In this document: positions 8,691 through 46,160 of the stretch, in pieces
Layout: each line of letters begins with the position of its first letter
Position numbering within the stretch: the stretch's first letter is position 1
Source of the DNA: Candidatus Latescibacterota bacterium
Lineage (GTDB): Bacteria; Latescibacterota; UBA2968
NCBI GenBank assembly: GCA_965222605.1
Contig: OZ244960.1
Span: forward strand, 2,112,001 to 2,176,000
DNA length: 64,000 nucleotides
Reading direction: 5' to 3'
Made by a program: the position numbers and the translations under genes
The notes under the pieces: model-generated
The model's input: only the letters and a program-made list of their open reading frames with translations
Databases searched by the model: none
What the model was told of the DNA's origin: nothing

Positions 8691-8701
8691 CACTCCTCCG
8701 T

Positions 8702-27816: not shown

Positions 27817-28056
27817 ATTCTGGTTCCTCTATATCATTAAAGAGCGGTGACATATCTCTTTCGGCATATTCATCTGCTCCAAAGCTAACATTTAGAAATT
27901 ATGCACATTTATGCTGCCGTCAATACAAGTCGCTCGGTTGCTAAATAGGCCGTTGTAAACTATTGCTCCATAAGCACAGAGGAAAAAAATAAAATCTCCG
28001 CAAGAATGGGGATTGAAGGTTTTGGCCTCTATATAAAAAAACCTGATTGATCTTCC

Positions 28057-29415
28057 TTAACTCTTTGTGGTCGGAGGAATATGTTTTTCCTCTATTTGGG
28101 TTTGCTGCAGGATTTCATGCAGCAATTTTACCAGTGCAAGACGAGCCTCCAAAGAGTACTGCAAATCTATAAAATAGTCCTTGATTTCAGGCCATTTATT
28201 CTGAAGCATATCGATAGGTCTTGAAGCTTCAATAAGATCCTGAATTTTACCACTTAATCTCTTTTCACGCTCAATAAATCTATTCCAAAAATTCTGTAAA
28301 TTTCCTCCTGAAGGTTGAACAAGCCTAACATCACGGTCAGGGATTCTAATTTTATTGATAATTAAGTCTCGGGTTTGGGGCTTAAGATCAAGCTGTTGTA
28401 GGATATCTTTCATTCTATTTTTGTCCTCAAACAGCCACTGCCAGAGAGACGGTTCTTTAGAATTCTCCAACTCAGCAGTCAGTCGATGCACTTCATAATT
28501 TAATTTTTTATTTTTATTTGTTTTATTTGCCAATTTTCTCTCGATATCTGATTTCATCACGTTTAGGCGCGCTTGGTCTTCCTTTAATCTGGTAACTTCC
28601 TCCTCCAATACAGATAATTCGCCGGATATCGCGTGTTTTTCAGAATCCCATTTGGCTTCACCATCTTTATACTTTTTCTCCCAACCAGCTTCTTTCTCTC
28701 TGAATTCCGTTGTAATATTCTGGATAGTCTGATCTTTCAATGAAATAATCCCACTTAGCTGATCTATTTCTTTTTCTTTCACTTTTATTTCTTTATTCGC
28801 AGTTTTCAACGATTCAGTCTGTTCACCAATTTGCTGTTTTAGCTGCGATATATCTTTCTTGAATTTCACCACTGAACTGGACTGTTCGCTTCGCACAGAT
28901 TTTGAATCGGCTATTTCCATTTCTAAGGGAGTTTCTACTCCCATCAAAACTTCAGCTTGCTCGCCTGTAAAGTTGATTGGACTGAATAATAGAAGAAAGA
29001 TTCTTTCTTTGAGGCCCCATCTTGATGAAAATTCAGTGAATTTTTCATCTGGCAGGGCATATTCATCTGATGCTATATCCCTCGATCCAATCCAATTGTC
29101 ATACTCCTCAGATTGAAAATAATCATCAAGTTTCTCTTTTATCTCTTTCCTACAATAATTCTGATACCAAACCATGAAAAATCTGACCTCAATTGACTCG
29201 GCGAGATCAGCGCGCCTCCTCAAGGCCATTTTCACACTCCGGATACCATGATCCCATAAAACCTTATTCCAATTGAATCCTCCACGTTCAAATTCTTGTC
29301 TCAAAGTTTTGAATTCACGGATAATCCTGACAAAATCGCTCCATTTGACAGAGCGAAAAAGAACTCCCAGTAAACGTTCTCTATCCGGTGAAACTTTAAC
29401 TGCCCCCTCAAACAT
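28057..29415 (-). CDS. Hypothetical coiled-coil protein, last gene of the defence operon
   Basis: 452 aa with a long heptad-rich central region; 8-bp overlap with the upstream gene; AT-rich. Confidence 0.75.
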   Translation of the reverse strand: MFEGAVKVSPDRERLLGVLFRSVKWSDFVRIIREFKTLRQEFERGGFNWNKVLWDHGIRSVKMALRRRADLAESIEVRFFMVWYQNYCRKEIKEKLDDYFQSEEYDNWIGSRDIASDEYALPDEKFTEFSSRWGLKERIFLLLFSPINFTGEQAEVLMGVETPLEMEIADSKSVRSEQSSSVVKFKKDISQLKQQIGEQTESLKTANKEIKVKEKEIDQLSGIISLKDQTIQNITTEFREKEAGWEKKYKDGEAKWDSEKHAISGELSVLEEEVTRLKEDQARLNVMKSDIERKLANKTNKNKKLNYEVHRLTAELENSKEPSLWQWLFEDKNRMKDILQQLDLKPQTRDLIINKIRIPDRDVRLVQPSGGNLQNFWNRFIEREKRLSGKIQDLIEASRPIDMLQNKWPEIKDYFIDLQYSLEARLALVKLLHEILQQTQIEEKHIPPTTKS

Positions 29416-32400
29416 CGATCTGCAACTCCTTCTGGATGTATTCCCTCAATTGCTGTGAGACAGATTCAATTTTTATTTTAAAAATTGCACCTTGTATTTC
29501 AGAATATTCTTCCATGTAATAATCTTTACCAAGCCTGTGTGGAGCTACTTTTTGTAACAGTTCCAAGGCCTCGAAATAACACTTTCGGCTTCTTAACATT
29601 CCAAGTCGATGTTTTACCCATTGGATGTCCTGCTCCAAGAAAATTTCTCGATTCTCAATAGGCCACTCATACTTTCCATTGAAATCAAGAAGTCGGTATT
29701 CTCTGTTTCTTATAGCAAATGCTTTAGCAATCAAGTATGTCTGTCCCTCAAGACTGTGACTATCAATATCAATTCGAAATTCCTTCTGTGATTTCATTTC
29801 GGGCCTACACCGAAATCGCTTGGCTCCAATGCATTTGCCATCAGCAAGAATGACAAACTCTACGAAGTCAGTAAAAGGGCCCGTAACTCTATTATATCCA
29901 ACAACCTGTCCGAGGGTTAGATGCTTGCGGAAACCTAATTCTTGGAACTCTGTATCAAAATTAATCTGGAAGCCATATGTATCCCATCCATCTTTGAGAC
30001 TGGCCTGTATAATTGGTTTGAATTGTTGCTTTGGTGATGAAATGCTGAACGTTCTAACACCAGGAGAAATTTCTTCAAGTTGTTCTATCTTGCCCTCTGA
30101 ATAAGTTATTTGTCCACTATATTTCGGATTGCTGATGGCAAGAAAGCGAACGGCATCCAGTCTTCTTTGATCAATCACTAATAACTCTGAGATTGTTTGA
30201 TTTATCGTATCCCACACTTTAATTTCCCGGACCATTGGGCAAAGCTCAAACAGCAGTTTTTCTTCAAGATATGGCACATCATAGTTTCTAATAAAACAAG
30301 GATGGTCAATCTGAATTTTACCATTATTTAAAAAAACATTCTGCCGGGCACTGCTGCTTTCAGATTCTTCTGTATCATACAAAAAGATCTGTTTCTCCTC
30401 GGAACCTTGTGCCCATTTTAACTGCAACGAAACAGCCTCTCCCTGCGTCAGGTCAGGAATTCTTGTTGATATTCCCGGGAACAGTACCATACGAACACTA
30501 TCAAATTTTTCCGACTCAACCCCCAGTGAAAGAGTAAGAGCAAAAGGAAACCGGGTTGGATACATGTCAAATCCCGCGAGAGATAAGATATGTTCTAACT
30601 CATCTCCTGACAGCACCAAATTACCATCCTCAACTCTGCCTGATGCACACTTCTTAAAGGGGATATGCACAGCATCTTGATCGTCAATTTCGACAGCCCA
30701 TTGAAGATAACTCTTTTCTGCATCCTCAGGGTTTGGAATAACTAATAGCTCAAAGTCTGTAAGCGTCTTGGCCTGATATGGAGCAAGTTTTACTCCTGCT
30801 GGTGCAGTAGTACGCAACCTTCTCAATTCTAATTCAAGGTCTATAAATCCGTCAAATTTCCAGATGTATTTATCTTCTTTAGAAATACATTTGATATGAT
30901 CTGACAGGGATGTTCCCCGATGCTGGAGTGTTAACATTCGATATTGACCATATACTTCCTCTTTCTCGATCTCAAAATTATGCAGTACCGGTTCAACATT
31001 TAAGGTCTTGGATATAAACAATAAAAGTCGGCCCTGACCACTGGCTATCAATGGATGACCCAGATCACCCTCTGGAATAAGTTTGCCGGGTTTCGACGAG
31101 AAAAGCATTATAGGCTTGAGTTCCAAAGTGCCAAGCTGTCGAACTTCCAATTCTGTTTTTGCAGAGAAATTGTACTTTCCCGGACAAGGATTGGCAAAAA
31201 TTAGATCTCTTAAGTTTACTTTACCATTTCCGTATTTATCAAGACGAACTCTACCAATAGAACGTGTTCTAGAATCAACCGCTATTTCTATTTTTTCCTC
31301 GGAAATTTCTGCATTCTTGAAAGCTACTTTTAGATTTGTGGCATAGAGCCTGAATATCTCGCTCCTCCAATTCCACAGACACCTCAAATGAGGAGAAAAG
31401 TTTACTGTATATTCCCCCTCGTATTTCCCAACTTGCTTACTAGAGGTAAATATCTGAATTGTCGAATAACGGTTTCGTCTTACAAAACCTATATTTCCCG
31501 CAAATTCGCTGTTCAGATACAAAGGTTTTACAAGATCTCTGCGAACTATACCATCAATTTCAGGAGTTATCTCATCTTTCGATTTTAAGAGTAAATAACC
31601 ACCGACACGAATAATTTTGTCGAAAGGCAAGTTTCTAAGCCGTTCCAATCCAAGGGAAAGATCAGGGACACACGTTAAGGTTCCACTTGAATACTTATAA
31701 GAACCATAATAAAACGGATGGCAAGCTTCGCGGGTTCTGCTTGTTCCATCTGGAAGGATTATCTTTTCTTTTTTATCAAGCTCAGCTAACACCGACACGA
31801 AGCGTTTGGGAGTGATAAGAGAAAAAACCTGAATCCATATTTTATGTAGGCGACTTTCATTTCGAATAATTTCTCTCGGATCAATTCCACATTCCTCCTG
31901 GATCAATCGATAATTAGCCTCCACATCGCCTATTTTGAGATCAGGGCTTTTCTCAATAAATGAGACGATACGAACCAGACGTACAATTCTCCTTGAAAAT
32001 GCGGATTTGAATTCTCGGACACGCGGCACTATTGTTCTAAGCTTTGCCAAGTCAGAATCAGGAACATCTCCATCGAATATCTCCCCTTCGCCCACCAGGT
32101 CAATCAACTTCTCCACATCCTCATTTCGGAAATGGCGCCAGTATATAAGAAAAAAATCAATCAGGAACCCTTGGAGTCCACGAGGTATACCAGCTTCGTG
32201 AATAAACGAATCGACAAATTCTCGTCGATTGGTGCGGTTCAGTTTAATCCCTTCATTTTTGAATCCTTCTTCCCAGAGATCATATGTATAATTGTCCTGC
32301 CGCCATCCTATTCTATTTCCATATATATCCCAGAAAGTTTGCACATAATGATCTTTGATAAGCTGACACACACCGGACAATGCAACTGTGAGAGCTTTTC

Positions 32401-32650
32401 GTTTGACAAAAGATGTAAAAATTAGCCGTCGGCGATAGACTCGGGATTGGAGAGTTTTTTGGATAGACATCAAGTCATCAAGGTGGGCAGACATATCTAT
32501 TTCTTCGAATGTAATCCTTTCGGGCATTTTTCGACCAGTTGCGTGAATTTCTTTTTTTACTATCTCCCGTTTCTTCTCAATTATCGCATGCAGTTCATTT
32601 ACCTTATTCAAAAAGGTGTCAAAATTATTGATTATATTGATATTAGACAT
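29408..32650 (-). CDS. Large (~1080 aa) hypothetical protein; N-terminus reminiscent of Druantia DruH/STY4851-like proteins
   Basis: Helical N-domain with FW...W..GF...EFV..FIHEAGIP, followed by a beta-rich remainder. Start MSNINI at 32650. Family link is tentative. Confidence 0.7.
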   Translation of the reverse strand: MSNINIINNFDTFLNKVNELHAIIEKKREIVKKEIHATGRKMPERITFEEIDMSAHLDDLMSIQKTLQSRVYRRRLIFTSFVKRKALTVALSGVCQLIKDHYVQTFWDIYGNRIGWRQDNYTYDLWEEGFKNEGIKLNRTNRREFVDSFIHEAGIPRGLQGFLIDFFLIYWRHFRNEDVEKLIDLVGEGEIFDGDVPDSDLAKLRTIVPRVREFKSAFSRRIVRLVRIVSFIEKSPDLKIGDVEANYRLIQEECGIDPREIIRNESRLHKIWIQVFSLITPKRFVSVLAELDKKEKIILPDGTSRTREACHPFYYGSYKYSSGTLTCVPDLSLGLERLRNLPFDKIIRVGGYLLLKSKDEITPEIDGIVRRDLVKPLYLNSEFAGNIGFVRRNRYSTIQIFTSSKQVGKYEGEYTVNFSPHLRCLWNWRSEIFRLYATNLKVAFKNAEISEEKIEIAVDSRTRSIGRVRLDKYGNGKVNLRDLIFANPCPGKYNFSAKTELEVRQLGTLELKPIMLFSSKPGKLIPEGDLGHPLIASGQGRLLLFISKTLNVEPVLHNFEIEKEEVYGQYRMLTLQHRGTSLSDHIKCISKEDKYIWKFDGFIDLELELRRLRTTAPAGVKLAPYQAKTLTDFELLVIPNPEDAEKSYLQWAVEIDDQDAVHIPFKKCASGRVEDGNLVLSGDELEHILSLAGFDMYPTRFPFALTLSLGVESEKFDSVRMVLFPGISTRIPDLTQGEAVSLQLKWAQGSEEKQIFLYDTEESESSSARQNVFLNNGKIQIDHPCFIRNYDVPYLEEKLLFELCPMVREIKVWDTINQTISELLVIDQRRLDAVRFLAISNPKYSGQITYSEGKIEQLEEISPGVRTFSISSPKQQFKPIIQASLKDGWDTYGFQINFDTEFQELGFRKHLTLGQVVGYNRVTGPFTDFVEFVILADGKCIGAKRFRCRPEMKSQKEFRIDIDSHSLEGQTYLIAKAFAIRNREYRLLDFNGKYEWPIENREIFLEQDIQWVKHRLGMLRSRKCYFEALELLQKVAPHRLGKDYYMEEYSEIQGAIFKIKIESVSQQLREYIQKELQIDV

Positions 32651-32672
32651 GACGCTGGACCTGTCTCTTAAA

Positions 32673-34430
32673 TCACATTTGACTCTGTAAAACAAAAAGC
32701 ATAGCATATTCTCTTGCTAGCTGATTGAACTCCTCTTTACAAGCTTTGTGAATGCATACTCCAAGATAGGCATTGGCCCTGGAAAAACTCACGTAGTTGA
32801 GCTTCCTGGCTTCAATGGAAACCAGCTCTTCAATATCTGTCACAATTATTACTTTGCTTTCCAGACCCTTAAACTTCCACACCGAAGTATAACGAATGGA
32901 ATGAGATGGGTTAAGCCATTCCCGATCAACTTGAATAAGCCTATTGCCAGCAATGCGATCATGATCTGCCAGCACAGATTTCTCTGTATTTTTTGCAGTA
33001 AGAAGGATAATTTCATCAGGTTGGATACCATCCGAAAGAAGACGAGAGACCATATTCTCAACTTTCTTGAATTGGTGTTTGACGCCTCTGTAGTATATTT
33101 TTTCTACCAAGGGACCACTCGTATTCAGACACTCCTGTGGCTCTGTCCCTGATACAAGATCGGTAAAAGTAGCAATCGGCCTTGTATTTCGACAATTTTC
33201 TCTCAATCTAATGTTGCCAGTGCCATATTGTGTTAGATCAAACACTTCATCACCTGTTTCGACGTTAAAGATCGCCTGCTTATCATCCTCAAACCAGGCC
33301 CATCGTCCATCTTTCAATCCTCCCTGAACAAGCCAATCTACTAACTCCACATAGGGCTTGTAATATTTGAAATCCTGCCCTTCATCAATAATCATAACTT
33401 CAAAGGGAGAGTCATCATATAAATGACAGAACGCTTCGGGAAAATACTCTGGTAGCGTCTTCTGAAAAAAATGATGGGTTCCCAAATCTTCTTCAATATC
33501 AGAAACCAATCCGGCTTTTTTGATTATGTTAAGGCAAAATGCATGAAGAGTAGTAACCAGAATCTGATCCTGTAGATCTTCATCCTGTACACTTTTTTTT
33601 AGAGATGACGCCAGAAGAGCATTGAAACAGATAAAAATTACTCGTTCTCCCTTTCGCGCATGGTTCCGCGCTTTCTGCATTGCAAGGAGTGTTTTTCCTG
33701 TTCCTGCACCACCTCGCACAACCACCCGGTCATTTTCCAACGTATCAAGCACTTTGAACTGCCTATCGGTCAGTTTTATCATATTCTGATAGGATTGATT
33801 TACCTGGGTACTCAGGGTGGGCACCAAGTCAAAATCCCGTCTCAGATGATCGCGTAACTCACGAAGGCGAGTGTTTGAAAGTTTGACGGGAAGATGTCCA
33901 ACAACTCGTTCATGTTCTTTTATTCCATAACTATACATCTCCTCCACCAAGGAACTTATACTGTCTTGAAGACTGGCTCCATCATAGACCTTTTTCAGAT
34001 TCCATTCTGGGGATACCTCTTGAAAAAGAATATCCGTAAATAAGACACAATCGCTGAAAACAGTTCTGCCCTGATCAGAATCTTTGCCGAAGTGATCCCA
34101 TATATTCGCTCGCAAAGCATACATGGCTTCTCTCGCCTGTTGCATGGGAGACCTTCGTCGAGAATCCGTCTCATCATAACGATTGGTGAAATACCACACA
34201 CCCATCTCATGGCGGACCCGACCACCCTTCACTTCTAATACAAGGAGACCCCGTTGGGAAACAATGAGAAAATCAATTTCTGAGCTAAAATTTCTTCCAT
34301 GCTTGGCGAGACCAAGCGAATGCATCACAATATAGTTTCCGTCCAGTTCTTCCTTTAATCTATCAAAGAGATATCTTTCCGCATTACTTTTACAATCAGG
34401 ATGGACAAATTCTGGTATCATTACTGCCAT
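32673..34430 (-). CDS. NERD nuclease + SF1 (UvrD-like) helicase fusion
   Basis: EIDFLIV..GLLVLEVKGG (NERD, PD-(D/E)xK type); GGAGTGKT, IIDEGQD, NCRNT, KFKGLE, YVSFSRA. Confidence 0.88.
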   Translation of the reverse strand: MAVMIPEFVHPDCKSNAERYLFDRLKEELDGNYIVMHSLGLAKHGRNFSSEIDFLIVSQRGLLVLEVKGGRVRHEMGVWYFTNRYDETDSRRRSPMQQAREAMYALRANIWDHFGKDSDQGRTVFSDCVLFTDILFQEVSPEWNLKKVYDGASLQDSISSLVEEMYSYGIKEHERVVGHLPVKLSNTRLRELRDHLRRDFDLVPTLSTQVNQSYQNMIKLTDRQFKVLDTLENDRVVVRGGAGTGKTLLAMQKARNHARKGERVIFICFNALLASSLKKSVQDEDLQDQILVTTLHAFCLNIIKKAGLVSDIEEDLGTHHFFQKTLPEYFPEAFCHLYDDSPFEVMIIDEGQDFKYYKPYVELVDWLVQGGLKDGRWAWFEDDKQAIFNVETGDEVFDLTQYGTGNIRLRENCRNTRPIATFTDLVSGTEPQECLNTSGPLVEKIYYRGVKHQFKKVENMVSRLLSDGIQPDEIILLTAKNTEKSVLADHDRIAGNRLIQVDREWLNPSHSIRYTSVWKFKGLESKVIIVTDIEELVSIEARKLNYVSFSRANAYLGVCIHKACKEEFNQLAREYAMLFVLQSQM

Positions 34431-36166
34431 GATCTATCCTCTGAGAAATATCCCATTTTTGGGTGTTCGGGAGTACCTGTTACGAGCCCCCGATCCAGAA
34501 AACTATTCATGGTCTCACAGGCTGTCTCTGGAAGTAGCGCACAAGAATGACAAGCACCAAGATTAAGAGAGTCCATTCCCTGGCCCGTCGATTCAATACA
34601 AAGAGGATCGCTAGAACACCATCTGCCCTGTTCGAGTGCTTCCATCAATGTAGATTCAAATCGAGTTTGTTTACCCTGCTGTACCAATCCTCCTAAGCTA
34701 CCTTCAGAATCAGACGCAGCGGTAAAAATTAAGAGCCCCAGCATGGCCTTCTGACCATCATCGGGGTTGGCTGCATAGATACGCTCCTGGAGCGCTGAGG
34801 TGGAATATCCACAGTTAATAGTCAGAGTTCTGATAAGAAGATGAGAAAGACTATGGAGTAGAATAAATTCCGGCGTTACTATCTCATTATGGATCAATCT
34901 GTTTCTTGCAGCAAGTAGCTTTCTTTGGGATTCAATTATCTTTACACGATCCTGTAGCACCACGCTGTTCTGGCGAAACCAATTTTCTACTGCCTCCCGA
35001 CTTAATGCCAAGAAAATTCCTTCACCCAGCACTTCTGTAGCAGGTAGCCAGCCAATTGAGGACTTTTTTATACGTGCAGATAGTTCTCTATTAGGCTCTA
35101 TCCGATTGAAGCCTGTCAATGCCGTAACTACTCGAAGCTTTTTTACCAGAACGACGGTCTCTATCAGACTGCTGAAGTCAGGTGGCACAGGCTCTGGTTG
35201 TGCAACAAAATGGTCTTCTTCAGCAAAGTCAATCGGATCTTTTAGAACCCTGTATTCTGCTTCTTTGAGATCCACACTGTCTTCCCTCTCTTCCTCTCCT
35301 TTATGGTGAAGATAGGCTTGCCATAGATCATTGGACGAAAGATTTTCCTCTTTTGCAATTTGTTCAAGAAACGGCTTAACAATATCTTCTATTTGGACGC
35401 CAAGGTGGGCTCTTACCCACAACTCCTCGACTCTTCTGTAGGCACTGTTTGAATATGGAGGTATGGAAATGGCAGATACTGTATTGGAAAAATGTACGCT
35501 TGTTGCACTTCTCTGCAATACTACAACCGGTTGGTCACACGGTTGCTCATCTTTAAGCCAGGGGCGGGCACCGGAGCATGTAAATCCTCTAAAAGATTCC
35601 GGATTGAAGACATCTGCCATAGTTTTTTGTGCCTCGCACCGACCACAGGAAATTAGAATACTGGAAAGTGACGTAGACATTCCTTCATTCTTGATACTCA
35701 GTTTAGGTCTTTCACAGGGACAACCAATCCACCATTGCCAGGGAAAATCATCGATATGACCTCTGCGACAACACAGAACAAAACGAGTCGGAACCAACCG
35801 GGCACCATCTGGGTCTTCCTCTCTGCAACGTTCACAATGAGTCCCTTTAATACCTCCACCAAATGTGTCAAATGGAGCAAGACGCCTGCAAATCGGACAG
35901 AATACATATTGAGGAAACCGCACACACGGAATCCCATCATCTTTAGCAATTCTACCAAATACGTTTTCTGAAGGCCGAGGCTGTCTGAAACCGGATACAT
36001 CAAGAAATCGTCGCAGCCGACTCTCCGTAACTTCTTCAAGATTTGAAGGAGGCCAGAAATCAAGACCAGATACCATTACAGAATAATCAGCCAGATCAAC
36101 AATGGCACCAGTACTGAATGTAGTAATAAGCTGACTCCTTCTCAGTTCACCAATAATATCAGGCAT
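34421..36166 (-). CDS. drmB: DrmB-like DUF1998 protein
   Basis: RRSQLITTF, RFP..CPIC, GHIDDFPW, HSLSHLLI, ALQERIY, DSEGSLGGL, CSSDPLC, ACHSC..PETACE..N..LDR. Confidence 0.9.
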   Translation of the reverse strand: MPDIIGELRRSQLITTFSTGAIVDLADYSVMVSGLDFWPPSNLEEVTESRLRRFLDVSGFRQPRPSENVFGRIAKDDGIPCVRFPQYVFCPICRRLAPFDTFGGGIKGTHCERCREEDPDGARLVPTRFVLCCRRGHIDDFPWQWWIGCPCERPKLSIKNEGMSTSLSSILISCGRCEAQKTMADVFNPESFRGFTCSGARPWLKDEQPCDQPVVVLQRSATSVHFSNTVSAISIPPYSNSAYRRVEELWVRAHLGVQIEDIVKPFLEQIAKEENLSSNDLWQAYLHHKGEEEREDSVDLKEAEYRVLKDPIDFAEEDHFVAQPEPVPPDFSSLIETVVLVKKLRVVTALTGFNRIEPNRELSARIKKSSIGWLPATEVLGEGIFLALSREAVENWFRQNSVVLQDRVKIIESQRKLLAARNRLIHNEIVTPEFILLHSLSHLLIRTLTINCGYSTSALQERIYAANPDDGQKAMLGLLIFTAASDSEGSLGGLVQQGKQTRFESTLMEALEQGRWCSSDPLCIESTGQGMDSLNLGACHSCALLPETACETMNSFLDRGLVTGTPEHPKMGYFSEDRSWQ

Positions 36167-36169
36167 ATT

Positions 36170-39100
36170 TCAATCCAGGTAGAGGTTAACTGTGGCATCC
36201 ACATTGCGCAGGTTGTTTAAGGTTCTAAATCCTCTATAATATCCGGTCTCCTCAAATCGGAGCAGTAGGGATTGGTGCTTTTCTTTTTCTAAGTAGTAAT
36301 AAACAGTCCCTTCTCTATTTTTTATTTCTTCCCAAGTATTAACAATGCTATCAAGCATCTGCTCTACAGCATTAACCTCAATATAGTCGATATTGTTAGC
36401 CCTACTAAGAATTTCTTTTTTAATATCGACGACTTTACTACGGTCAAATTTATTTGCATCACTATTTTCTTTCATATTATCCAGAAGGTGCCGTACAAGC
36501 GTTACAAGAATCGCGTGTAGTCCGCGTTTTCTGGCACCAATTGAAAATGGCGTTACGCTGGTTGCTTCGACTTCAGCATAAAGTCTGGAATGATAAAATT
36601 GAAAACGCTCGTAATGGGATCGGTCTCTTGATCTCATATGATTGTATAAGGTGACTACAAGGCCAGGATATTGTCTTCCAACCCGGCTGGTTGCTTGAAT
36701 GTATTCGGCGGTGGTTTTAGGCTGACCGATGACGGACATGAGCCCCAGTCTCGGTACGTCAAGACCAACAGATATCATATTTGTCGCAAGAACTACCTCC
36801 AGAGCATCACAGTCAGGATACTGGTACCAGAGACGTTCCCGAATTTCCTTAAGTTCCTGTTCATTTCGCCGACTGGTTAATTCAAACACTTCCTCGATCT
36901 CCCTCATGCTCTCGTTATCTCTTTCGGCACAAAAACGCAGGTAATCTTTTACGTCATCCATAACCTGGACCCGTGCACTGCCCAGTTCTCGAAGGCTATT
37001 GAAATATCCCATAAATGTCCAGTATGGATCTCTAATTTCATCATTAGCCTTCAGCTTTTTAGCGGAATGAAGCAAGGAAGCAGTAGATCGAATGAAGGTG
37101 GTGGTTCCGGTTTTCCCCGGTGTGAAAATTCCTACATACTTCCTTGCAGGTTTTTCTCGATCTTCACGGGCAAAAAATGAGTCTCTGGCATCAAGAAACG
37201 GAGGAGGAAACTGTGCAAATTGACGGTCAAAAAGGGCCTGTACCTGACTCGCTGCATTTTTTATAGTAGCAGTGGATGCAATAATCTTAGGACGATGAGA
37301 ATTTCTGGTTGATAGCAGATCTACGGCGGTTTCATAAAGACCAGCCAATGTGCCTAAGGGACCAGAAATCAAGTGTAACTCATCCTGGATAATCAGATCG
37401 GGTGGAGGTGTCTCGCCATCTGTTCCAAAAAAGTTACCTGCGTTCTCTACCCAAGGAAGGCGTGCAAACTTATCGATTGTTCCGATAATTAGAGATGGCC
37501 GAACTTCGTAAATATCTTCATCGACAAAATGAACCGGCAATCCGTCGTGAAAGCAGCAGGATTCGTCAGGACATCTTACTTGAGGGAGGTCGTTATCATA
37601 ATCTGCAGCAGAAATCTCTGTGCCACAATAAGGACATTTGGTCAATACCATCGGATTGGGCATTCCGGGTTCAGGTGAACCCTGTTGACACTGACGCATG
37701 AGCTGTCGATATCCCTTCTCGTAGTTATTATTAATGTTGATTTTGTTCGGAGTTCCTCCCCCTCCAACCCACAATCCAATCGATATAGGAGCAGTCTTCT
37801 GAACGTCCAGTTCTTCTCTACGGACTTTTTCACAGGCACAGATCATAGCTGCCGAGCGTTCAAACTGATCCGCTGTCAGCAACCGCAAAGTATATCTGGT
37901 TATCACTGATGTACCGCCGCCATCATGGTGTTTCTCTTTTCCCCTGAGCCGGCGCAAAAAAAGTGCAAAGGCGGTAAGTCCAAGATACGCTTCAGTTTTG
38001 CCGCCTCCGGTAGGAAACCAAAGAAGATCTGCGATCGATCTATCATCCGACGAATTGTTTCCGACCGACTCAAGGCAAAGTAAAATAAAAGCAATCTGGA
38101 AGGGATACCATTCATGGCCTGAGTTATAGTCAGGCTTGCCACTATATTGTCTTTTTTTCCAATCCGACAATGCGAAGACGATCAGCATAGCTTTGTGTGC
38201 AAGCTGAAATGCTCGGAGGATTAGAGGATCACCGAGAACATTAATCCCTTTCTTCATTCTTTGTAGAGCCTGTAAACAGGACTTCTGCTGTTCTTGAGCA
38301 ACGGCGATAAAATCATCGTTTATCTTTTTATTTTTACTGACAGAGATGTTCTCGATTTCTTTTGAATTTTCTTTAATCCAATTCTCATAGATGTTGGTAA
38401 TATTGCCAAAGAGGTCTTTAAGATCATCTGGACTGGCATTGGCAATTTCGCTTAGAAAGAATGGGGGAAGATTTAGATCCTTCGGAGGAGTCAGAGGATA
38501 TATATCATATTCAGGGATAAAGCAGCATTCAATTCGTAAACATCTATTTTTCACTGGATCATCCCATTTTGCTGAACACCCATGTCCGGTTGCAAAATTT
38601 TTCTGGTGGCGATAAAGTAGATAAAAGGCTTTATTTTCGTCTCCTCCTTCTTGGCGTCCATCAAATGGCCTCTCGGTGAATATCCGCTGACCATCTTTCC
38701 CTGAAACTGAGAAATGAACCTGATAGAAACTGTTTTCGGCAATGTCCTTAAAAGGGACGAAACTGCTTCGGGACCGTCGAGAGTTATCATCTTCATCTCT
38801 CAAAGGTTTCACTACATTCCTGTTAATTAAGGATATAGTAATAGAAACCTGGCCTTCCTGTGACGGCTCTCTATATTTTATGTAGGCATCCAAACCGTCA
38901 CATACTTTCACACTCTTTTTAGTATTTTTACGAATAATAGGAAGTTCAAGTTTTGATGCTCCTGTACTTTCCACCCAGTCTGGTGTGATACTTTTTCGTT
39001 TCCACTGTAGATCGACATCCTTATCCTCAGACGGAGTAAGTTCGTAACGTCCTGCATCCACTTCCAGCATGATAGACCTGGTGTCCTCTGAGCAAGTAAA

Positions 39101-39382
39101 GGTGATCCCATAGCAGGATGGTCTGCGGACATTACTCTGAGCAAGTTTTCCTTCACTTTCTCCCGATTCACCGAACTCGTTTTCTATATCCTCGTCATCT
39201 TCTATTGAAGTTAGTACTTCAGGAGGAAAAAGAATCCCTGTAGAGTATCGATGCATGGGTGTGTCATCTTCATCTCTGTAGGCAATAGTCTCGTTCATTC
39301 CATTGTAAGGTCCAAAAAAATCTCTTTTCAGGAGTTCCAGCATGCCCCCCCTAAAATCTTCATGAGTTTTGATATCTTCCAT
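36170..39382 (-). CDS. drmA: DrmA-like SF2 helicase
   Basis: WYPFQIAFIL, LLWFPTGGGKTEAYLG, RYTLRLLT, GTIDKFA, IIQDELHLISGPLGT, YFNSLRELG, ATNMISVGLD, EYIQATSRVGR, RDRSHYE. Confidence 0.92.
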   Translation of the reverse strand: MEDIKTHEDFRGGMLELLKRDFFGPYNGMNETIAYRDEDDTPMHRYSTGILFPPEVLTSIEDDEDIENEFGESGESEGKLAQSNVRRPSCYGITFTCSEDTRSIMLEVDAGRYELTPSEDKDVDLQWKRKSITPDWVESTGASKLELPIIRKNTKKSVKVCDGLDAYIKYREPSQEGQVSITISLINRNVVKPLRDEDDNSRRSRSSFVPFKDIAENSFYQVHFSVSGKDGQRIFTERPFDGRQEGGDENKAFYLLYRHQKNFATGHGCSAKWDDPVKNRCLRIECCFIPEYDIYPLTPPKDLNLPPFFLSEIANASPDDLKDLFGNITNIYENWIKENSKEIENISVSKNKKINDDFIAVAQEQQKSCLQALQRMKKGINVLGDPLILRAFQLAHKAMLIVFALSDWKKRQYSGKPDYNSGHEWYPFQIAFILLCLESVGNNSSDDRSIADLLWFPTGGGKTEAYLGLTAFALFLRRLRGKEKHHDGGGTSVITRYTLRLLTADQFERSAAMICACEKVRREELDVQKTAPISIGLWVGGGGTPNKININNNYEKGYRQLMRQCQQGSPEPGMPNPMVLTKCPYCGTEISAADYDNDLPQVRCPDESCCFHDGLPVHFVDEDIYEVRPSLIIGTIDKFARLPWVENAGNFFGTDGETPPPDLIIQDELHLISGPLGTLAGLYETAVDLLSTRNSHRPKIIASTATIKNAASQVQALFDRQFAQFPPPFLDARDSFFAREDREKPARKYVGIFTPGKTGTTTFIRSTASLLHSAKKLKANDEIRDPYWTFMGYFNSLRELGSARVQVMDDVKDYLRFCAERDNESMREIEEVFELTSRRNEQELKEIRERLWYQYPDCDALEVVLATNMISVGLDVPRLGLMSVIGQPKTTAEYIQATSRVGRQYPGLVVTLYNHMRSRDRSHYERFQFYHSRLYAEVEATSVTPFSIGARKRGLHAILVTLVRHLLDNMKENSDANKFDRSKVVDIKKEILSRANNIDYIEVNAVEQMLDSIVNTWEEIKNREGTVYYYLEKEKHQSLLLRFEETGYYRGFRTLNNLRNVDATVNLYLD

Positions 39383-39384
39383 TG

Positions 39385-41286
39385 CTAAATCTCCTTCCAG
39401 TCCTTGCAAAATCCTAAGCCCATAATTCTGACTCCTGACCACAAACAGGATGTCAGAAATTTTCGAGGTACTACTTCCTTCATACCGGCATCTCCAATCT
39501 CAGTAACAATATCTCTAATCCAGAGCCCTGTGATCTGGTGGGGTACTTTCTTAACCACATTTCCAAATCTTGTTTCGGAGATTGACTGTCTAAGTGCATA
39601 GCCAAAATATCGATCAGTTGTACCAATGGATCTCTGTTGATCAATTTCACCTACACAGATGTCATATATGGGAATCCGATTTTCACTGATCAAAAATCTC
39701 AGGGTTACGGAATCTCCGTAATTGAAATTTCGTATTCTTTCTTGGTTTTCATAGATTTTTTTGACAGAGCCATATTTTTTTTCAGAAACAAAGGAGTGAA
39801 TATCAATATCTCTTTCCAGCCCGACTTCAAGGCTTTTTAGAGGTTGCCAAGGTCCGTATCTTCCATATACGAACGGTGTTTCAACCCATCGATTCACTTT
39901 GTTACGACGCAATCCATCCCGTCGTCCTGCATCCAACCTGTAAAGTTTATTCCTTGCGCGTGTCAAACCTACAAATAAAACTCGCGTTTCATCCTCAGCA
40001 TTTTCATCAACAAGAGGTTCGTCAGAGTCAATTGCCTCCTCAATACCCTGATCATCTCCGACCACAACTGCCACTTGATCAAATTCCCTCCCTTTGGATC
40101 GATGGATGGTTGAAAGGATGAGGTCATGATCTGTCGATACCTCTGTCTCAGGAAAAACAGCATCTGTTCTCAATGCCTGGCGTAAAAGATTGAGATCAAG
40201 TAATATACTATTTTTTCTTTGTCGTACGATTCGCAGAAGCGCGTCCCACATTTCTTGCGAATCCATACTTCCATCTCCCAAGCGTTCCTCAAAAAGTGGG
40301 ATGAAATCACGCTTACGAATTTCCGAAGACGACCAGCCCAAGAATAACCAGCCCACCCAATAAGGCACAGTTTTTTCATCTCTCCTTTTCTGGATTCTAA
40401 AAGACCTATCCATACTTTTCAGACAGGAAGCCAGCCGATAGACTTGGCCGTTGTCTCTACAGAGAAAGCAGGATCTATTATTTCTAAAATTATTCGGAAC
40501 TGAGGGATTGGATAGCTCTCCAAGAGATTCGAGAAACTGATATTCTTCGAATAGGTAGGCGGCTGCCATCGGTTTATTGTTCAAGATCAGTTTTCGCCCT
40601 TTTTCAGATATTTCTTCAAGCACCGGATTGTCTCTAATGCGATAATTCCTCTGGAATTCTATGTTAGTATCCAGTTCAGGGAAAAACTTCCTTACCTGAT
40701 TAAGGAATTCTGTAGATGTCATTGCATCTGGCTGTTTACTGATCTGAAAATCATAGATACCCTGTGCTGAATCACCCAGAAGAGTAAAGCCACAATCTAC
40801 CTGCCGGAGTATCTGTAGGGTCATCTCTGCTCGTGAGCCTACCAAGTCCTGAATTTCATCCACCAGTACGTGGCGATACCTCTGGAGCTCTTCCATTGCT
40901 TTTTCATTAGACACTATGAGTTCGGTAGCTTTTTCGATTCTGGATTCGTAATCCCAATCCCCTGCGAGGGATTCCCGGCCAGTGACATCAATTATGAATC
41001 GACTGGCAAAAGAGTCGAAAGTCCGTATTTGTGTTCGAAGCAAGTCTTCTGTAATAGATTCCTTTTCAACTGCATCCTTAAGTCGAGATTTAACTTCAGC
41101 TACTGCAGCAACAGAAAAACTCAGCACCAAAATTTCAGAACCTGGCTCTAACTCTTCTTCCTTAGCCAAAAATTCAAGACGTTTCAATAGACAGTGTGTC
41201 TTACCTGTACCGGGACCTGCTTGAACAAGGAGTTGTGCCGATGCCCTTGCAAATACCACCTTTTTTTGTTCACCGGTGAGATCCAT
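39385..41286 (-). CDS. UvrD/Rep-like SF1 helicase
   Basis: AGPGTGKT, VDEIQD, GDSAQGIY, NYR, STIHRSKGREFD, FVGLTRA. Confidence 0.9.
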   Translation of the reverse strand: MDLTGEQKKVVFARASAQLLVQAGPGTGKTHCLLKRLEFLAKEEELEPGSEILVLSFSVAAVAEVKSRLKDAVEKESITEDLLRTQIRTFDSFASRFIIDVTGRESLAGDWDYESRIEKATELIVSNEKAMEELQRYRHVLVDEIQDLVGSRAEMTLQILRQVDCGFTLLGDSAQGIYDFQISKQPDAMTSTEFLNQVRKFFPELDTNIEFQRNYRIRDNPVLEEISEKGRKLILNNKPMAAAYLFEEYQFLESLGELSNPSVPNNFRNNRSCFLCRDNGQVYRLASCLKSMDRSFRIQKRRDEKTVPYWVGWLFLGWSSSEIRKRDFIPLFEERLGDGSMDSQEMWDALLRIVRQRKNSILLDLNLLRQALRTDAVFPETEVSTDHDLILSTIHRSKGREFDQVAVVVGDDQGIEEAIDSDEPLVDENAEDETRVLFVGLTRARNKLYRLDAGRRDGLRRNKVNRWVETPFVYGRYGPWQPLKSLEVGLERDIDIHSFVSEKKYGSVKKIYENQERIRNFNYGDSVTLRFLISENRIPIYDICVGEIDQQRSIGTTDRYFGYALRQSISETRFGNVVKKVPHQITGLWIRDIVTEIGDAGMKEVVPRKFLTSCLWSGVRIMGLGFCKDWKEI

Positions 41287-41356
41287 GATCTATCCTGACT
41301 TCAGGTTGTGTTTGTAATATTCACAGTTTGAAATGAATTTATCAGACAAGTTCATC

Positions 41357-42955
41357 TCACGGACTCACTCTTGCTTGCTCCAGTACCTGGTGGACAATAG
41401 CTGCAATCTGTCTGGCCAAAAGAGGCGGCACTGCATTACCAACCTGAATGTATTGTGATGTACGTGGACCGCAAAAAAAATAATTATCCGGGAAGGTCTG
41501 AAGCCTCGCAGCCTCCCGGACAGTGAGACTACGGCACTGTGTCGGGTCGGGATGGATATAGTAATGCCCGTCTTTCGATATATGTGAAGTAACTGTAGTC
41601 GCGGGCCTGTTGCCAATCTGTACTCGAAATCGATCACTAAAAAGAGGTTTTCCGTTTGCAGCGCGTTTTGCATTCTTATGGGCAGGCAAAAGATCGGTGG
41701 GAAAATCTTCTAATTTTGGAGATTGACCCTCAACCTCTGCGAAGCAAGCAGCATAGAAATAGCGATATAGATCACTCACCATATGTCCTCGAGTGGTGTG
41801 GTTGCACACTCCTCCTATACGGGAATCGAGAAACCAATTGGGTTCATGGCTGATATCCGTATCACAAGAGATGAACTCACCACCGCGACCAGCACTATGT
41901 CGAATTTCTTTCAGTTTAGCAATCAGTTTTTCATGAATTTTTCCATTCTCTTCTGTTTGCAGCGCAGCAAACCAAGGACACTCAGCCATTTTATACAGCC
42001 AATTACGCCAGGCATCAGCACTATCTTTTTCTCGGGATAATCCGCTTCTTACTTTGGGTAAATCGTCCAAAACTCTCCTCGCATTAACAACAGGACTCTG
42101 TTTTTTGAGAGTTTTTGGCGGGATCTCAATATCTTTATGGATTCCGAGGATAATGACGCGATGGCGTGCCTGCGGAATGCCGAATTTTTCCATATGAACC
42201 ACAAAATCAGAGAGGTTTGCATTACTGATTTCATCAGGTTTTACCAATGAATATAATTTGTATCGACACGGCTTGCGGGCCTGTACAGGTGCCCGAACAG
42301 AACGGTCCTCACGTTCGAGGGCTTTCTCTGGTTCCTGAAGGTCCTCATACATACGTTCAAAGATGTACTGATCCTTTAAGGTAGCAGACAATAATCCTTT
42401 GACGTTTTCCATCACAAAGATGGCTGGTTGGTGTTCCGCAATAATTTGTAAGTATTCTAAATATAAATATTGCCGGTGATCTTTCTCTGCCTGATAGTCG
42501 GAGTTCCCACGATTACGAGACCTGCCGACAACAGAGTATGCCTGACAGGGAGGACCACCGACCAACACCCACTCGCCACAATCCTCTAAAGCATCCTGAA
42601 TCCATTTATGAATTGTATGAGGATCATCTTTTCCTAACTCGGCAAGACGTGCTTCTTGTTTAACTTGTTTGTATTCTTCGGGGTACCGACTGAACAGCTT
42701 ATTTCGCCGCTCATCTTCCGGAATATCAACTTGGCGCAGATAGTCATAGTAGGCATCCGGGACCTTGTCATGGGGAAACTGGCGAAAGAAGCTACGCAAT
42801 TCAAGTGTCTGGTGAGCCGCAGGATCTTTTTCTATAGAGAGTTTGATTTGAAAAGGCTGCTCACCAGAATCTGCATAAGCAGAAAACCCCTCGCCCAGTC
42901 CGCCCGGCCCAGCGAACAGGTCTATAACAGGGATCTCTCTCGGATATTCTGACAA
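41357..42955 (-). CDS. dcm: DNA (cytosine-5)-methyltransferase
   Basis: DLFAGPGG, GGPPCQ, ENV, PQARHR, RSLTVREAARLQTFP, QVGNAVPP. Confidence 0.95.
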   Translation of the reverse strand: MSEYPREIPVIDLFAGPGGLGEGFSAYADSGEQPFQIKLSIEKDPAAHQTLELRSFFRQFPHDKVPDAYYDYLRQVDIPEDERRNKLFSRYPEEYKQVKQEARLAELGKDDPHTIHKWIQDALEDCGEWVLVGGPPCQAYSVVGRSRNRGNSDYQAEKDHRQYLYLEYLQIIAEHQPAIFVMENVKGLLSATLKDQYIFERMYEDLQEPEKALEREDRSVRAPVQARKPCRYKLYSLVKPDEISNANLSDFVVHMEKFGIPQARHRVIILGIHKDIEIPPKTLKKQSPVVNARRVLDDLPKVRSGLSREKDSADAWRNWLYKMAECPWFAALQTEENGKIHEKLIAKLKEIRHSAGRGGEFISCDTDISHEPNWFLDSRIGGVCNHTTRGHMVSDLYRYFYAACFAEVEGQSPKLEDFPTDLLPAHKNAKRAANGKPLFSDRFRVQIGNRPATTVTSHISKDGHYYIHPDPTQCRSLTVREAARLQTFPDNYFFCGPRTSQYIQVGNAVPPLLARQIAAIVHQVLEQARVSP

Positions 42956-43197
42956 GGTTCTTCTCGCTTATCTGAGAATGATTGAATGGGATTAGACACA
43001 GAGCGAAGTGATTATCAAATATGCATCTGATAATATTTAATGAGCTTTCATTTTATAGCTAATCTAAAAAGGCGTCAACACCAATCTGTATCTAATGCTG
43101 ACTATTGCTATTACCATCGAATTTATCTTTAAATCTTTGGAATCCCATCATGGAAGCCTCGGAGTAAATTATCTTCGGAGTTTTTTGTGTAATAATA

Positions 43198-43225
43198 TTG
43201 ACAAAAAATTATAAATAGATATACT
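43198..43225 (+). promoter_or_regulatory. Promoter of the abiE operon (leaderless-type)
   Basis: TTGACA-16bp-TATACT; ATG 7 nt downstream; no RBS. Confidence 0.55.
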
Positions 43226-43232
43226 TTAACAC

Positions 43233-43838: not shown

Positions 43839-43945
43839 AAAGAGCGCGTCCCAAAAACCTGCCCGTATCCGTCCATCAACGACTTCTAAACCTGAGCAAG
43901 GAAAAGGGCGAAGAACCCAACCAGGTTTTCTTGCGCTATGTTAAG
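43835..43945 (+). pseudogene. 5' stub of the AbiEii nucleotidyltransferase toxin
   Basis: ATGA overlap with the antitoxin; KNLPVSVHQRLLNLSKEKGE...LRYV, after which similarity is lost. Confidence 0.7.
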
Positions 43946-44002
43946 GAGAGAAATACAATCAAGTATGGCAAGACGGTGGTCCTTGGGAAAAATAACCTCA
44001 GA

Positions 44003-46111: not shown

Positions 46112-46160
46112 ATAAAAATCTAACTTTTTAAGTATAATATCAAGCCTGTAGTTGTAGAAA

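What the first reader, a model, noticed from the sequence alone, without database searches (positions are those of the whole stretch)
28057..42955. Non-canonical DISARM-like defence system: dcm - SF1 helicase - drmA - drmB - NERD-helicase - 1080-aa unknown - coiled-coil unknown
Seen: seven co-oriented genes, AT-richer than the flanks. Gaps are 70, 2, 3 and 22 bp and there are two overlaps. All ORFs are intact in a window full of pseudogenes. Known: DISARM has a drmA-drmB-drmC (PLD nuclease) core, plus drmD/drmMI (class 1) or drmE/drmMII (class 2). Here DrmA, DrmB and a C5 MTase are clear, but I see no HKD PLD protein, no SNF2 DrmD and no recognisable DrmE. The drmC position holds a NERD nuclease-SF1 helicase, a second SF1 helicase precedes drmA, and two unknown proteins follow. 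Inference: a three-helicase, methylation-based anti-phage/anti-plasmid system with a different nuclease effector and extra sensor or scaffold subunits.
Basis: partly seen in the sequence, partly recalled or inferred. Interest (0 to 1): 0.9.

Follow-up and report, generated by a model that had tools for sequence, protein, structure and literature searches.

The report
DISARM variant with DruH-like partner
This is an intact, horizontally acquired seven-gene relative of the DISARM anti-phage system that has a nuclease-helicase in place of the usual nuclease, plus two conserved extra genes, one of which looks like the DNA-end sensor of a different defence system, Druantia III.

Summary
The seven co-oriented genes are real, intact and lie in a low-GC island. 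They encode a DrmMII-type C5 methylase, a UvrD-like SF1 helicase, DrmA, DrmB, a NERD nuclease-SF1 helicase, a 1080/1099-aa protein (g6) and a 452-aa coiled-coil protein (g7). No DrmC, DrmD, DrmE or DrmMI was found, so it fits neither defined DISARM class.

The order UvrD-DrmA-DrmB-NERD-helicase-g6-g7 recurs in 16 of 16 loci fetched through g6 from distant taxa, as far as each contig reaches. In two loci g6-g7 forms a separate, convergent unit, so it is a distinct module.

[quoted passage not shown] This is the published architecture of DruH (YjiT family) of Druantia III. Its N-terminal domain aligns weakly with YjiT_N: above all controls, but below conventional significance.

g6 and g7 diverge about twice as fast as the enzymes beside them.

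I read it as an unnamed DISARM variant with a NERD-helicase effector and a DruH-like sensor or DNA-end-processing module. Function is inferred, not shown. The claim of a window full of pseudogenes is not supported.

The parts
41357..42955 (-). g1: DrmMII-type C5 cytosine DNA methyltransferase (532 aa from a TTG start)
   Evidence: PF00145 1.9e-45. PADLOC DrmMII PDLC02649 2.1e-96. Motifs FAGPGG, PPCQ and ENV are present. Full-length homologues with 44-48% identity lie beside the system in L003, L005 and L010.
39385..41286 (-). g2: UvrD/GajB-like SF1 helicase (633 aa) with no nuclease domain, in the position upstream of drmA
   Evidence: UvrD-helicase 8e-26 and UvrD_C. Best PADLOC hits are GajB models, about 1e-27. 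Walker A GPGTGKT and Walker B DEIQD are present. It is conserved upstream of DrmA in all 11 loci that reach that far.
36170..39442 (-). g3: DrmA, a YprA-family SF2 helicase (1090 aa from GTG; likely start at M21 = 39382)
   Evidence: PADLOC DrmA 1.2e-224. NCBIfam DISARM_DrmAS scores 929.4 bits against a cut-off of 950. GGGKT and DELH motifs are present. In the DrmA tree it groups with the DrmAs of the other g6-bearing loci.
34421..36166 (-). g4: DrmB (DUF1998/MZB zinc-binding partner of DrmA, 581 aa)
   Evidence: NF038324 DrmB_fam 491.6 bits against a cut-off of 240. PF09369 MZB. Four CxxC pairs.
32673..34430 (-). g5: NERD (PD-(D/E)xK) nuclease fused to an SF1 helicase (585 aa), in the place of DrmC
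   Evidence: NERD 3.3e-13 plus UvrD-helicase. PADLOC RTasNERD-Hel 5e-51. In 10 aligned homologues E18, E51/D53, E66/K68, Walker A (242-247) and DEGQD (349-353) are invariant.
29408..32707 (-). g6: 1099-aa frame (1080 aa from M20 = 32650). DruH-like architecture: N-terminal helical domain, about 6-7 Ig-like beta-sandwiches, C-terminal helical domain
   Evidence: No Pfam, PADLOC or NCBIfam hit. AF2 model has pLDDT 81. Fold searches return only multi-Ig matches. The family has 67 representatives. The N-terminal domain gives weak similarity to YjiT_N.
28057..29415 (-). g7: 452-aa helical protein with a central coiled coil of about 135 residues; always follows g6
   Evidence: AF2 model has pLDDT 74, with a single helix spanning 184-318. 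No fold match. Homologues follow g6 in all 11 loci that extend far enough. Two of them carry a C-terminal RNA_pol_A_CTD domain.
27900..46500 (.). Low-GC island that carries the system plus AbiEi-like, DUF2442-HTH and TnpB genes
   Evidence: GC profile. Pfam hits for the flanking ORFs. g6 was found in 1 of 168 genomes of the host's phylum, the host itself.

Best explanation
The locus is one horizontally acquired, methylation-linked defence system derived from DISARM. It is built from three modules. Module 1 is a DrmMII-type C5 methylase that marks host DNA. Module 2 is a four-gene motor/nuclease core: a UvrD-like SF1 helicase, the split YprA-family helicase DrmA+DrmB, and a NERD nuclease-SF1 helicase that sits where DrmC normally lies and is the likely DNA-degrading effector. 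Module 3 is a fast-evolving two-gene unit, g6-g7. g6 has the architecture of Druantia III DruH (N-terminal helical domain, Ig-like array, C-terminal helical domain). Proposed mechanism, all of it inferred: g6, with g7, recognises a phage component or a phage DNA end and exposes or processes single-stranded DNA, as has been reported for DruH. DrmAB then loads on unmethylated DNA with a single-stranded overhang, as shown for Serratia DrmAB. The two SF1 helicases and the NERD nuclease then unwind and degrade the invader. What is shown here: gene content, intact catalytic motifs, co-conservation and gene order across distant taxa, horizontal acquisition, and the predicted fold of g6. What is inferred: defence activity, self-marking by methylation, the order of events, and any physical contacts.
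For: Family assignments come, and intact motifs. No DrmC, DrmD, DrmE or DrmMI model hit any of the seven proteins. PADLOC finds those models readily in canonical loci. A genome-wide search found no DrmC, and its control matched in 8 of 14 control genomes. On synteny, all 16 loci fetched through g6 (4 genomes and 12 metagenome contigs, roughly 8-9 independent lineages) have the NERD-helicase next to g6-g7. All 11 loci long enough carry UvrD-DrmA-DrmB-NERDhel-g6-g7. A C5 methylase lies beside the system in the window, L003, L005 and L010 (DrmMII-like), and in L007 and L013 (as part of an EcoRII-Vsr-Dcm cassette). The eight variant DrmAs fall on one side of a branch against six canonical ones, with support 90/90. 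For the window against L007, L009 and L010, identity is 39-47% for the four core enzymes, 25-26% for g6 and 21-27% for g7. Within g6, the N-terminal domain keeps a median of 36% identity and the Ig-like region 19%. The g6 model has helices at 29-310, beta structure at 315-1020 and helices at 1025-1095. [quoted passage not shown] For the g6 N-terminal domain against YjiT_N, hhalign gives score 33.5 and P 0.0012 over 121 columns. None of 146 column shuffles reach that score (maximum 25.3), and reversed or unrelated profiles score 13.8-20.5. The Atlas embedding pointed to YjiT_N twice, at 0.83-0.89. DrmAB activation by 5' overhang DNA comes from passages of PMC9142583.
Against: No experiment bears on this locus. 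In L002 and L005, g6-g7 lies on the opposite strand, convergent with the core, so it can be transcribed separately and could act alone. All loci were retrieved through g6, so the survey cannot say how many cores lack g6-g7; unchecked earlier notes of this scan report such cores. The DruH link is below conventional significance: hhalign probability is 20% at best, full-length profile against profile gives E 0.2, and the Atlas scores are under 0.9. The three DruH papers disagree on what DruH does: sensor with dimer nuclease, ssDNA binder without nuclease activity, or 3'-5' exonuclease. The borrowed mechanism is therefore itself unsettled. L004 shows no methylase in the fetched part and has a transposon inside DrmA. 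DrmA falls just under the NCBIfam equivalog cut-off.
Confidence: 0.6

Rival explanations
1. These are two adjacent but functionally independent systems. One is a DISARM variant (methylase, UvrD-like helicase, DrmA, DrmB, NERD-helicase). The other is a separate two-gene system (g6-g7) that merely rides in the same defence-island cassette.
For: g6-g7 forms its own convergent unit in L002 and L005; in L005 the methylase is in that unit. Unchecked earlier scan notes describe the four-gene core without g6-g7 or with other partners. Defence genes cluster for reasons other than shared function.
Against: In 16 of 16 loci g6-g7 touches the NERD-helicase/DrmAB core, and in 14 of 16 it is co-directional directly behind the NERD-helicase. 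In the window the genes are 22 bp apart or overlapping. No g6 relative was found apart from the core in the genomes searched. Only the query's own genome matched in 168, 401 and 401 genomes, plus one weak hit at E 1e-4.
Confidence: 0.25
2. It is an ordinary class 2 DISARM whose DrmE and DrmC are simply too diverged to be recognised: g2 or g6 would be DrmE, and g5 would be a functional replacement of no consequence.
For: A DrmMII-type methylase is present, and a gene of unknown family about 1100 aa long sits in the operon. DrmC is reported as dispensable and often missing (passages of PMC9142583).
Against: g6 hits no PADLOC model at all, even at E up to 10. None of 20 g6 relatives hits any model. 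g2 is a clear UvrD/GajB-type SF1 helicase. The variant DrmAs separate from canonical ones in the tree. The NERD-helicase is strictly conserved with invariant catalytic residues.
Confidence: 0.07
3. g6 is a non-defence Ig-repeat protein, such as an adhesin or surface protein, and g7 is a structural coiled-coil protein; both were captured on the island by chance.
For: Fold searches return only generic Ig-like or adhesin-type matches.
Against: The printed N-terminus has no hydrophobic leader (my reading). The pair shows strict synteny with helicase and nuclease genes in distant phyla. The most conserved part of g6 is the helical N-terminal domain, not the Ig array.
Confidence: 0.03

Closest known systems
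Class 2 DISARM (drmE-drmA-drmB-drmC-drmMII; Ofir et al. 2018, composition as given in PMC9252829 and PMC9142583; the original paper was not held)
   Same: It shares the DrmA+DrmB split YprA helicase core and a DrmMII-type C5 methylase in one operon on a mobile island.
   Different: There is no DrmC PLD nuclease and no DrmE. Instead there is a UvrD-like SF1 helicase upstream of DrmA, a NERD nuclease-SF1 helicase after DrmB, and the g6-g7 pair.
Druantia type III (DruH-DruE)
   Same: A YprA-family helicase is paired with a protein of about 1100 aa that has an N-terminal helical domain, an Ig-like array and a C-terminal helical domain, and that evolves faster than the helicase (passages of PMC13192584). 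There is weak sequence similarity in the N-terminal domain.
   Different: The helicase here is the split DrmA/DrmB type without a fused nuclease, not the roughly 2000-aa DruE. A methylase, two SF1 helicases and g7 are present, which Druantia III lacks. g6 matches no PADLOC model at all, DruH included, and full-length profiles do not match.
ARMADA type II (ArmA-D; Bell et al. 2025, PMC12458937, sections read)
   Same: It is a multi-helicase, methylase-containing system built on a YprA helicase. It includes a GajB/UvrD-like SF1 helicase with an N-terminal nuclease-type domain (RelE in ArmD, NERD here).
   Different: ARMADA has an unsplit YprA helicase with a fused Vsr nuclease, a BrxHII/SNF2 helicase and a PglX N6 methylase. 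None of these is present here.
Unnamed 'NERD-helicase DISARM variant' noted by earlier agents of this scan (e.g. e1-4062985, e1-2057559)
   Same: It has the same four-gene idea: a UvrD-like helicase, DrmA, DrmB and a NERD-helicase in place of DrmC, usually with a C5 methylase nearby.
   Different: None of those notes mentions the g6-g7 pair, and a sequence look-up with g6 found no earlier window. Here the pair is conserved and g6 is DruH-like.

Membership tests
DISARM (core) | DrmA: YprA-family SF2 helicase | tested here: met
   PADLOC DrmA 1.2e-224. NCBIfam DISARM_DrmAS scores 929 bits, 21 bits under its equivalog cut-off. DELH and GGGKT motifs are present.
DISARM (core) | DrmB: DUF1998/MZB protein encoded separately, directly after DrmA | tested here: met
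   NF038324 scores 491.6 bits against a cut-off of 240. There is a 3-bp gap after DrmA.
DISARM (core) | DrmC: PLD (HKD) nuclease | tested here: not met
   No DrmC or PLD hit among the seven proteins. No match to PDLC02585 in the whole genome, with the control matching in 8 of 14 control genomes. DrmC was found at 1e-51 to 1e-103 in 5 canonical loci.
DISARM (core) | DNA methyltransferase in the operon | tested here: met
   DrmMII PDLC02649 2.1e-96, with intact motifs I, IV and VI. The methylated motif is unknown.
DISARM class 1 | DrmD (SNF2 helicase) and DrmMI (N6 adenine methylase) | tested here: not met
   No DrmD or DrmMI hit among the seven proteins. Both were found with E = 0 in canonical loci L032-L035. 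The rest of the genome was not searched for them.
DISARM class 2 | DrmE | tested here: inconclusive
   g6 and g7 hit no DrmE model. For g2 and g5 only the best 25 of 54 and 37 PADLOC hits were shown, and none of those was DrmE. The genome-wide search with PDLC02635 found nothing, but its control matched in none of the control genomes.
DISARM | Protection against phages that depends on DrmA and DrmB | not testable with these tools
   Needs cloning and phage challenge.
DruH / YjiT family (Druantia III) | Architecture: N-terminal helical domain, six Ig-like domains, C-terminal helical domain, about 1100 aa | tested here: met
   The AF2 model of g6 (pLDDT 81) has helices at 29-310, beta structure at 315-1020 and helices at 1025-1095. 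Only multi-Ig fold matches were found. The published description was read. This rests on a prediction. My domain count of about 6-7 comes from the strand pattern; boundaries were not determined.
DruH / YjiT family (Druantia III) | Sequence membership (Pfam YjiT_N PF27201 / YjiT_2nd PF27205) | tested here: inconclusive
   These Pfam models are not in the library at hand. Full-length hhalign profiles give E 0.2. N-terminal-domain profiles give P 0.0012 and probability 20%, with 0 of 146 shuffles reaching the score and controls at 13.8-20.5. Atlas scores are 0.83-0.89.
Druantia III | DruE: unsplit YprA helicase of about 2000 aa with C-terminal PLD-like nuclease domains | tested here: not met
   The helicase here is DrmA (1090 aa) plus a separate DrmB, and both best match DISARM models.

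The most novel reading that the evidence does not exclude
g6 is a true, very distant homologue of DruH. On this reading the system is a DISARM-Druantia hybrid. A DruH-type protein, with its coiled-coil partner g7, senses phage or trims DNA ends to create the single-stranded overhang that licenses the split YprA helicase DrmAB. The NERD-helicase supplies the nuclease that DISARM has been missing. That would make 'YprA helicase plus DruH-type licensing factor' an ancient module shared across otherwise separate defence families. It would also give DISARM a concrete trigger and a concrete effector.
Probability: 0.35. Interest if true: 0.8.

Novelty: new variant of a known kind. Interest (0 to 1): 0.7.

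Why it matters
How DISARM destroys DNA is an open question. DrmC is dispensable and does not co-purify with DrmAB, and the authors of the DrmAB structure suggest that an unknown nuclease is recruited (passages of PMC9142583). This variant hard-wires a nuclease-helicase with intact catalytic residues into the operon, so that question becomes directly testable.

It also adds a DruH-like protein beside a DrmAB helicase. If the homology is real, it links the DISARM and Druantia III mechanisms: DNA-end processing or sensing that licenses a YprA helicase. It would also extend the YjiT/DruH family well beyond Proteobacteria.

The g6 superfamily has 67 clusters at 50% identity and currently carries no annotation in Pfam, PADLOC or NCBIfam. 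I found no paper that names this architecture. The supplementary tables of Bell et al. 2025 were not opened. They may list such 'uncharacterized DISARM-like classes', which the paper mentions without describing them.

Tried and rejected
- **Complex prediction.** I submitted the g6 N-terminal domain, the g6 C-terminal domain and g7 to complex prediction. It gave no verdict (score 0.29 against a mark of 0.32), so it says nothing either way.
- **DruH homology at full length.** Profile against profile gave E 0.2. The distant g6 subfamily A4 against YjiT gave E 0.23. The DruH link is therefore not accepted as shown.
- **Collections with no g6 relative.** tblastn of g6 on 72,556 plasmids found nothing. 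A scan of viral contigs with A4 found nothing.
- **Context of the distant g6 relatives.** These are about 1000 aa long and homologous to g6 over nearly the full length (E 2.6e-81).
- **NERD-helicase homologues elsewhere.** Seven Desulfobacterota genomes hold NERD-helicase homologues at 27.5-29.4% identity. None lies next to a DrmAB detectable with the window's proteins. The NERD-helicase family is therefore wider than this system.
- **Island boundaries.** Promoter and terminator scans gave counts no higher than shuffled sequence. No flanking direct repeat spans the island; only a local 39-nt repeat lies at its right edge.
- **Papers.** Ofir et al. 2018 was not held.
Full report
**1. What is in the sequence**

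Seven open frames lie head to tail on the minus strand between 28057 and 42955. The junctions are +70, +2, +3, -10, +22 and -8 bp. This assumes DrmA starts at its M21 and g6 at its M20; the M20 start is the 1080-aa form held in public collections. GC is 38-45% from about 27.9 to 46.5 kb, against 50-58% on both sides.

The flanks encode sulfatase, BNR, NHL and PhyH-type proteins. The right part of the island holds an AbiEi-like gene, a DUF2442-HTH gene and a TnpB gene.

Non-overlapping ORFs of at least 100 aa cover 85% and 90% of the flanks, with median lengths of 266 and 377 aa. This is a crude measure.

**2. The five recognisable genes**

- **g1** is a C5 methylase that best matches PADLOC DrmMII (2.1e-96). 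Motifs I, IV and VI are intact.
- **g2** is a UvrD/GajB-like SF1 helicase with Walker A and B motifs and no nuclease domain.
- **g3** is DrmA (PADLOC 1.2e-224). It scores 929 bits on NCBIfam DISARM_DrmAS, just under the 950 cut-off, which fits a divergent subfamily.
- **g4** is DrmB (NF038324, 492 bits against a cut-off of 240).
- **g5** is a NERD nuclease fused to an SF1 helicase. In ten aligned homologues the PD-(D/E)xK residues (D53, E66, K68), Walker A and the DEGQD box never vary.

None of the seven proteins hits a DrmC, DrmD, DrmE or DrmMI model. The whole genome has no DrmC match. As a positive control, the same library found DrmC in five canonical DISARM loci from Desulfobacterota, DrmD in one and DrmMI in four. 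PADLOC requires DrmA, B, C, D and MI for type I, and DrmA, B, C, E and MII for type II (passage of PMC9252829). The locus therefore fits neither definition.

**3. The two unknown genes are conserved with the system**

g6 has only nine word-index relatives; eight are 81-92% identical and one is 55% identical. An exhaustive search found 67 cluster representatives, 27 of them below 1e-30, mostly 1000-1100 aa long.

I fetched 4 genome loci (Smithella, Desulfobacter, a Spirochaetota MAG and an unclassified MAG) and 12 metagenome loci through g6. I then laid the window's seven proteins on them. The results:

- All 16 loci have the NERD-helicase next to g6.
- In 14 loci g6 follows the NERD-helicase directly on the same strand.
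- All 11 loci that reach far enough upstream carry UvrD-DrmA-DrmB-NERDhel. The 14 that reach DrmB have it, and the other two end inside the NERD-helicase.
- All 11 loci that extend past g6 have a g7 homologue. Ten were found by tblastn; L004 was found by ORF position and alignment.

Several metagenome contigs are near-identical (L012, L013, L014, L016 and L017, with L007 close to them). Independent lineages therefore number about eight or nine, not sixteen.

In L002 and L005 the g6-g7 pair lies on the opposite strand, convergent with the four-gene core; in L005 a DrmMII-like methylase precedes it. g6-g7 is thus a separable module.

A DrmMII-like methylase sits upstream in the window and L003, before g6 in L005, and after g7 in L010. 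L007 and L013 instead have an EcoRII-Vsr-Dcm cassette within 1-2 kb. In L004, DrmA is interrupted by a DDE transposase and no methylase was seen in the part fetched.

**4. Distribution**

g6 relatives were found in the following samples:

| Sample | Genomes with a match | Note |
|---|---|---|
| Host's own phylum | 1 of 168 | the host itself |
| Desulfobacterota | 2 of 401 | the genome L004 came from, plus one weak hit at E 1e-4 |
| Spirochaetota | 1 of 401 | the genome L005 came from |
| Plasmids | none | |
| Viral contigs | none | |

Together with the low GC, this points to rare, horizontally moving cargo.

In the same Desulfobacterota sample, 10 of 401 genomes carry DrmB. I fetched eight of the other nine. 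Five have DrmC after DrmB, one has DrmD and DrmMI, and two are truncated or unclear. Only the locus L004 came from is of the NERD-helicase type.

In a tree of 14 DrmAs, the eight from g6-bearing loci fall on one side of a branch against the six canonical ones, with support 90/90 (not starred). They form two strongly supported subclades. I left out L004 (interrupted DrmA), the near-copies L014, L016 and L017, and the truncated L031 and L036.

**5. What g6 and g7 look like**

The g6 model (22-sequence alignment, pLDDT 81, pTM 0.43) has three parts: a helical domain at 29-310, an uninterrupted run of beta-sandwich units at 315-1020, and helices at 1025-1095. I read about six or seven beta-sandwich units from the strand pattern.

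Foldseek and VIA-align return only multi-Ig proteins and generic sandwiches. The helical N-terminal domain is the conserved part. The window's protein keeps a median of 36% identity to distant members there, against 19% in the Ig region and 18% in the C-terminal domain.

Across loci, g6 and g7 keep 21-27% identity where the four enzymes keep 39-47%.

g7 is all-helical, with one helix of about 135 residues between two helical domains, and has no fold match. In L002 and L005 it carries a C-terminal RNA-polymerase-alpha-CTD-type helix-hairpin-helix domain (5.9e-15 and 1.6e-12). This hints at DNA contact or RNA polymerase contact.

**6. The DruH lead**

The protein-language-model Atlas put YjiT-family clusters among the nearest named neighbours of g6 (0.88-0.89). 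For the N-terminal domain alone they were at the top (0.83-0.85). Such scores are leads only.

YjiT is DruH of Druantia III (passages of PMC13192584). In E. coli the full-length protein is 1096 aa and is followed by the large DruE-type helicase.

[quoted passage not shown] They report only Ig-type structural hits and no InterPro match. That is exactly what I obtained for g6.

At the sequence level the picture is as follows:

- The g6 profile against K-12 YjiT gave E 0.0027.
- The g6 profile against a 17-member YjiT alignment gave only E 0.2.
- A 52-member profile of the g6 N-terminal domain against the YjiT N-terminal domain gave score 33.5, P 0.0012 and probability 20%. The alignment spans 121 columns at matching positions and aligns the most conserved segment of each family.
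- None of 146 column shuffles reached that score (mean 15.3, maximum 25.3).
- Reversed profiles and three unrelated families scored 13.8-20.5 over 25-64 columns.

I rate homology as more likely than not, but not shown. Column shuffles do not preserve helical periodicity, and the number of shuffles is small.

**7. Mechanism**

Shown elsewhere: Serratia DrmAB is autoinhibited by a trigger loop and is activated by DNA with a 5' single-stranded overhang. DrmC is dispensable, and the authors propose that an unidentified nuclease is recruited (PMC9142583, passages).

DruH has been reported in three ways: as a phage-responsive sensor with dimer-dependent nuclease activity (PMC13192584); as an ATP-inhibited ssDNA binder without nuclease activity (10.64898/2026.05.12.722862); and as a 3'-5' exonuclease that creates 5' overhangs which recruit DruE (10.64898/2026.05.13.724313). 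These accounts disagree.

Inferred here: the methylase marks self DNA. g6-g7 detects infection or processes DNA ends. DrmAB loads on the exposed strand of unmethylated DNA. The NERD-helicase, helped by the UvrD-like helicase, degrades it. The fast divergence of g6-g7 fits a component that faces phage proteins. None of this was tested. A complex prediction for g6 with g7 gave no verdict.

**8. Comparison and novelty**

The locus works like DISARM and shares its core, but fails the DrmC test and fits neither class. It shares with Druantia III the pairing of a YprA helicase with a DruH-shaped protein. It shares with ARMADA II the nuclease-tagged GajB-like helicase.

Bell et al. 2025 mention 'many uncharacterized DISARM-like classes' without describing them, and the paper never mentions DruH. 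Its supplements were not opened.

Literature searches for this gene combination, for a third DISARM class and for DruH-like or YjiT-like proteins found nothing that describes it.

Earlier agents of this scan have repeatedly noted the NERD-helicase DISARM variant in other genomes. Those notes are unchecked. None mentions g6-g7, and g6 matched no earlier window.

**Verdict**

This is a real, intact and rare variant of a known kind. Its new content is the conserved g6-g7 module and its likely kinship with DruH.

Noticed in passing
window 43233-44335: An ORF with an AbiEi_4 antitoxin HTH (43233-43838) overlaps a second 200-aa ORF in another frame (43733-44335) that has no family. This could be a frameshifted AbiEi-type gene or a small toxin-antitoxin pair.
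   Followed up: no
window 44003-44518 and 44755-45888: A DUF2442+HTH_3 fusion ORF and an intact TnpB (OrfB_IS605 + Cas12f1-like TNB, 377 aa) lie in the same low-GC island next to the defence operon.
   Followed up: no
window 46161-46199 and 46575-46613: A 39-nt direct repeat (90% identical) sits at the right edge of the island. The second copy lies at the start of the PhyH gene (46567-47496), and a 104-aa ORF (46204-46518) lies between the copies. This may be a duplicated gene start left by the insertion.
   Followed up: partly
window 6001-9000, tRNA-Val 7968-8044: A second GC dip (45%) lies beside the only tRNA gene of the window. It may be another integration hotspot.
   Followed up: no
L004 3845-5020 and 15581-17783: In the Desulfobacter genome the DrmA gene of the same system is split by a DDE_Tnp_1 transposase, and an IS21 pair (transposase + IstB) lies downstream. 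That copy is probably inactivated.
   Followed up: partly
L007 14711-23093; L013 14570-20289: The metagenome copies sit in defence islands. An EcoRII-Vsr-Dcm cassette lies directly after g7. L007 also has a SIR2_2 + HerA(DUF87) pair. L013 has a GIY-YIG protein and a DndB-like protein.
   Followed up: no
L002 (G168:C38:1321-4611): The Smithella g6 homologue is read through one in-frame TAA in the genome search, although my ORF scan gave a 1099-aa frame at 1312-4611. The discrepancy is not resolved.
   Followed up: no
L037 / L027 (G377:C3, about 5.087-5.105 Mb): One Desulfobacterota genome has DrmA-DrmB with no ORF of at least 250 aa after DrmB on the same strand, and a NERD-helicase homologue about 11 kb away on the other strand. 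This may be another arrangement of the same parts.
   Followed up: no
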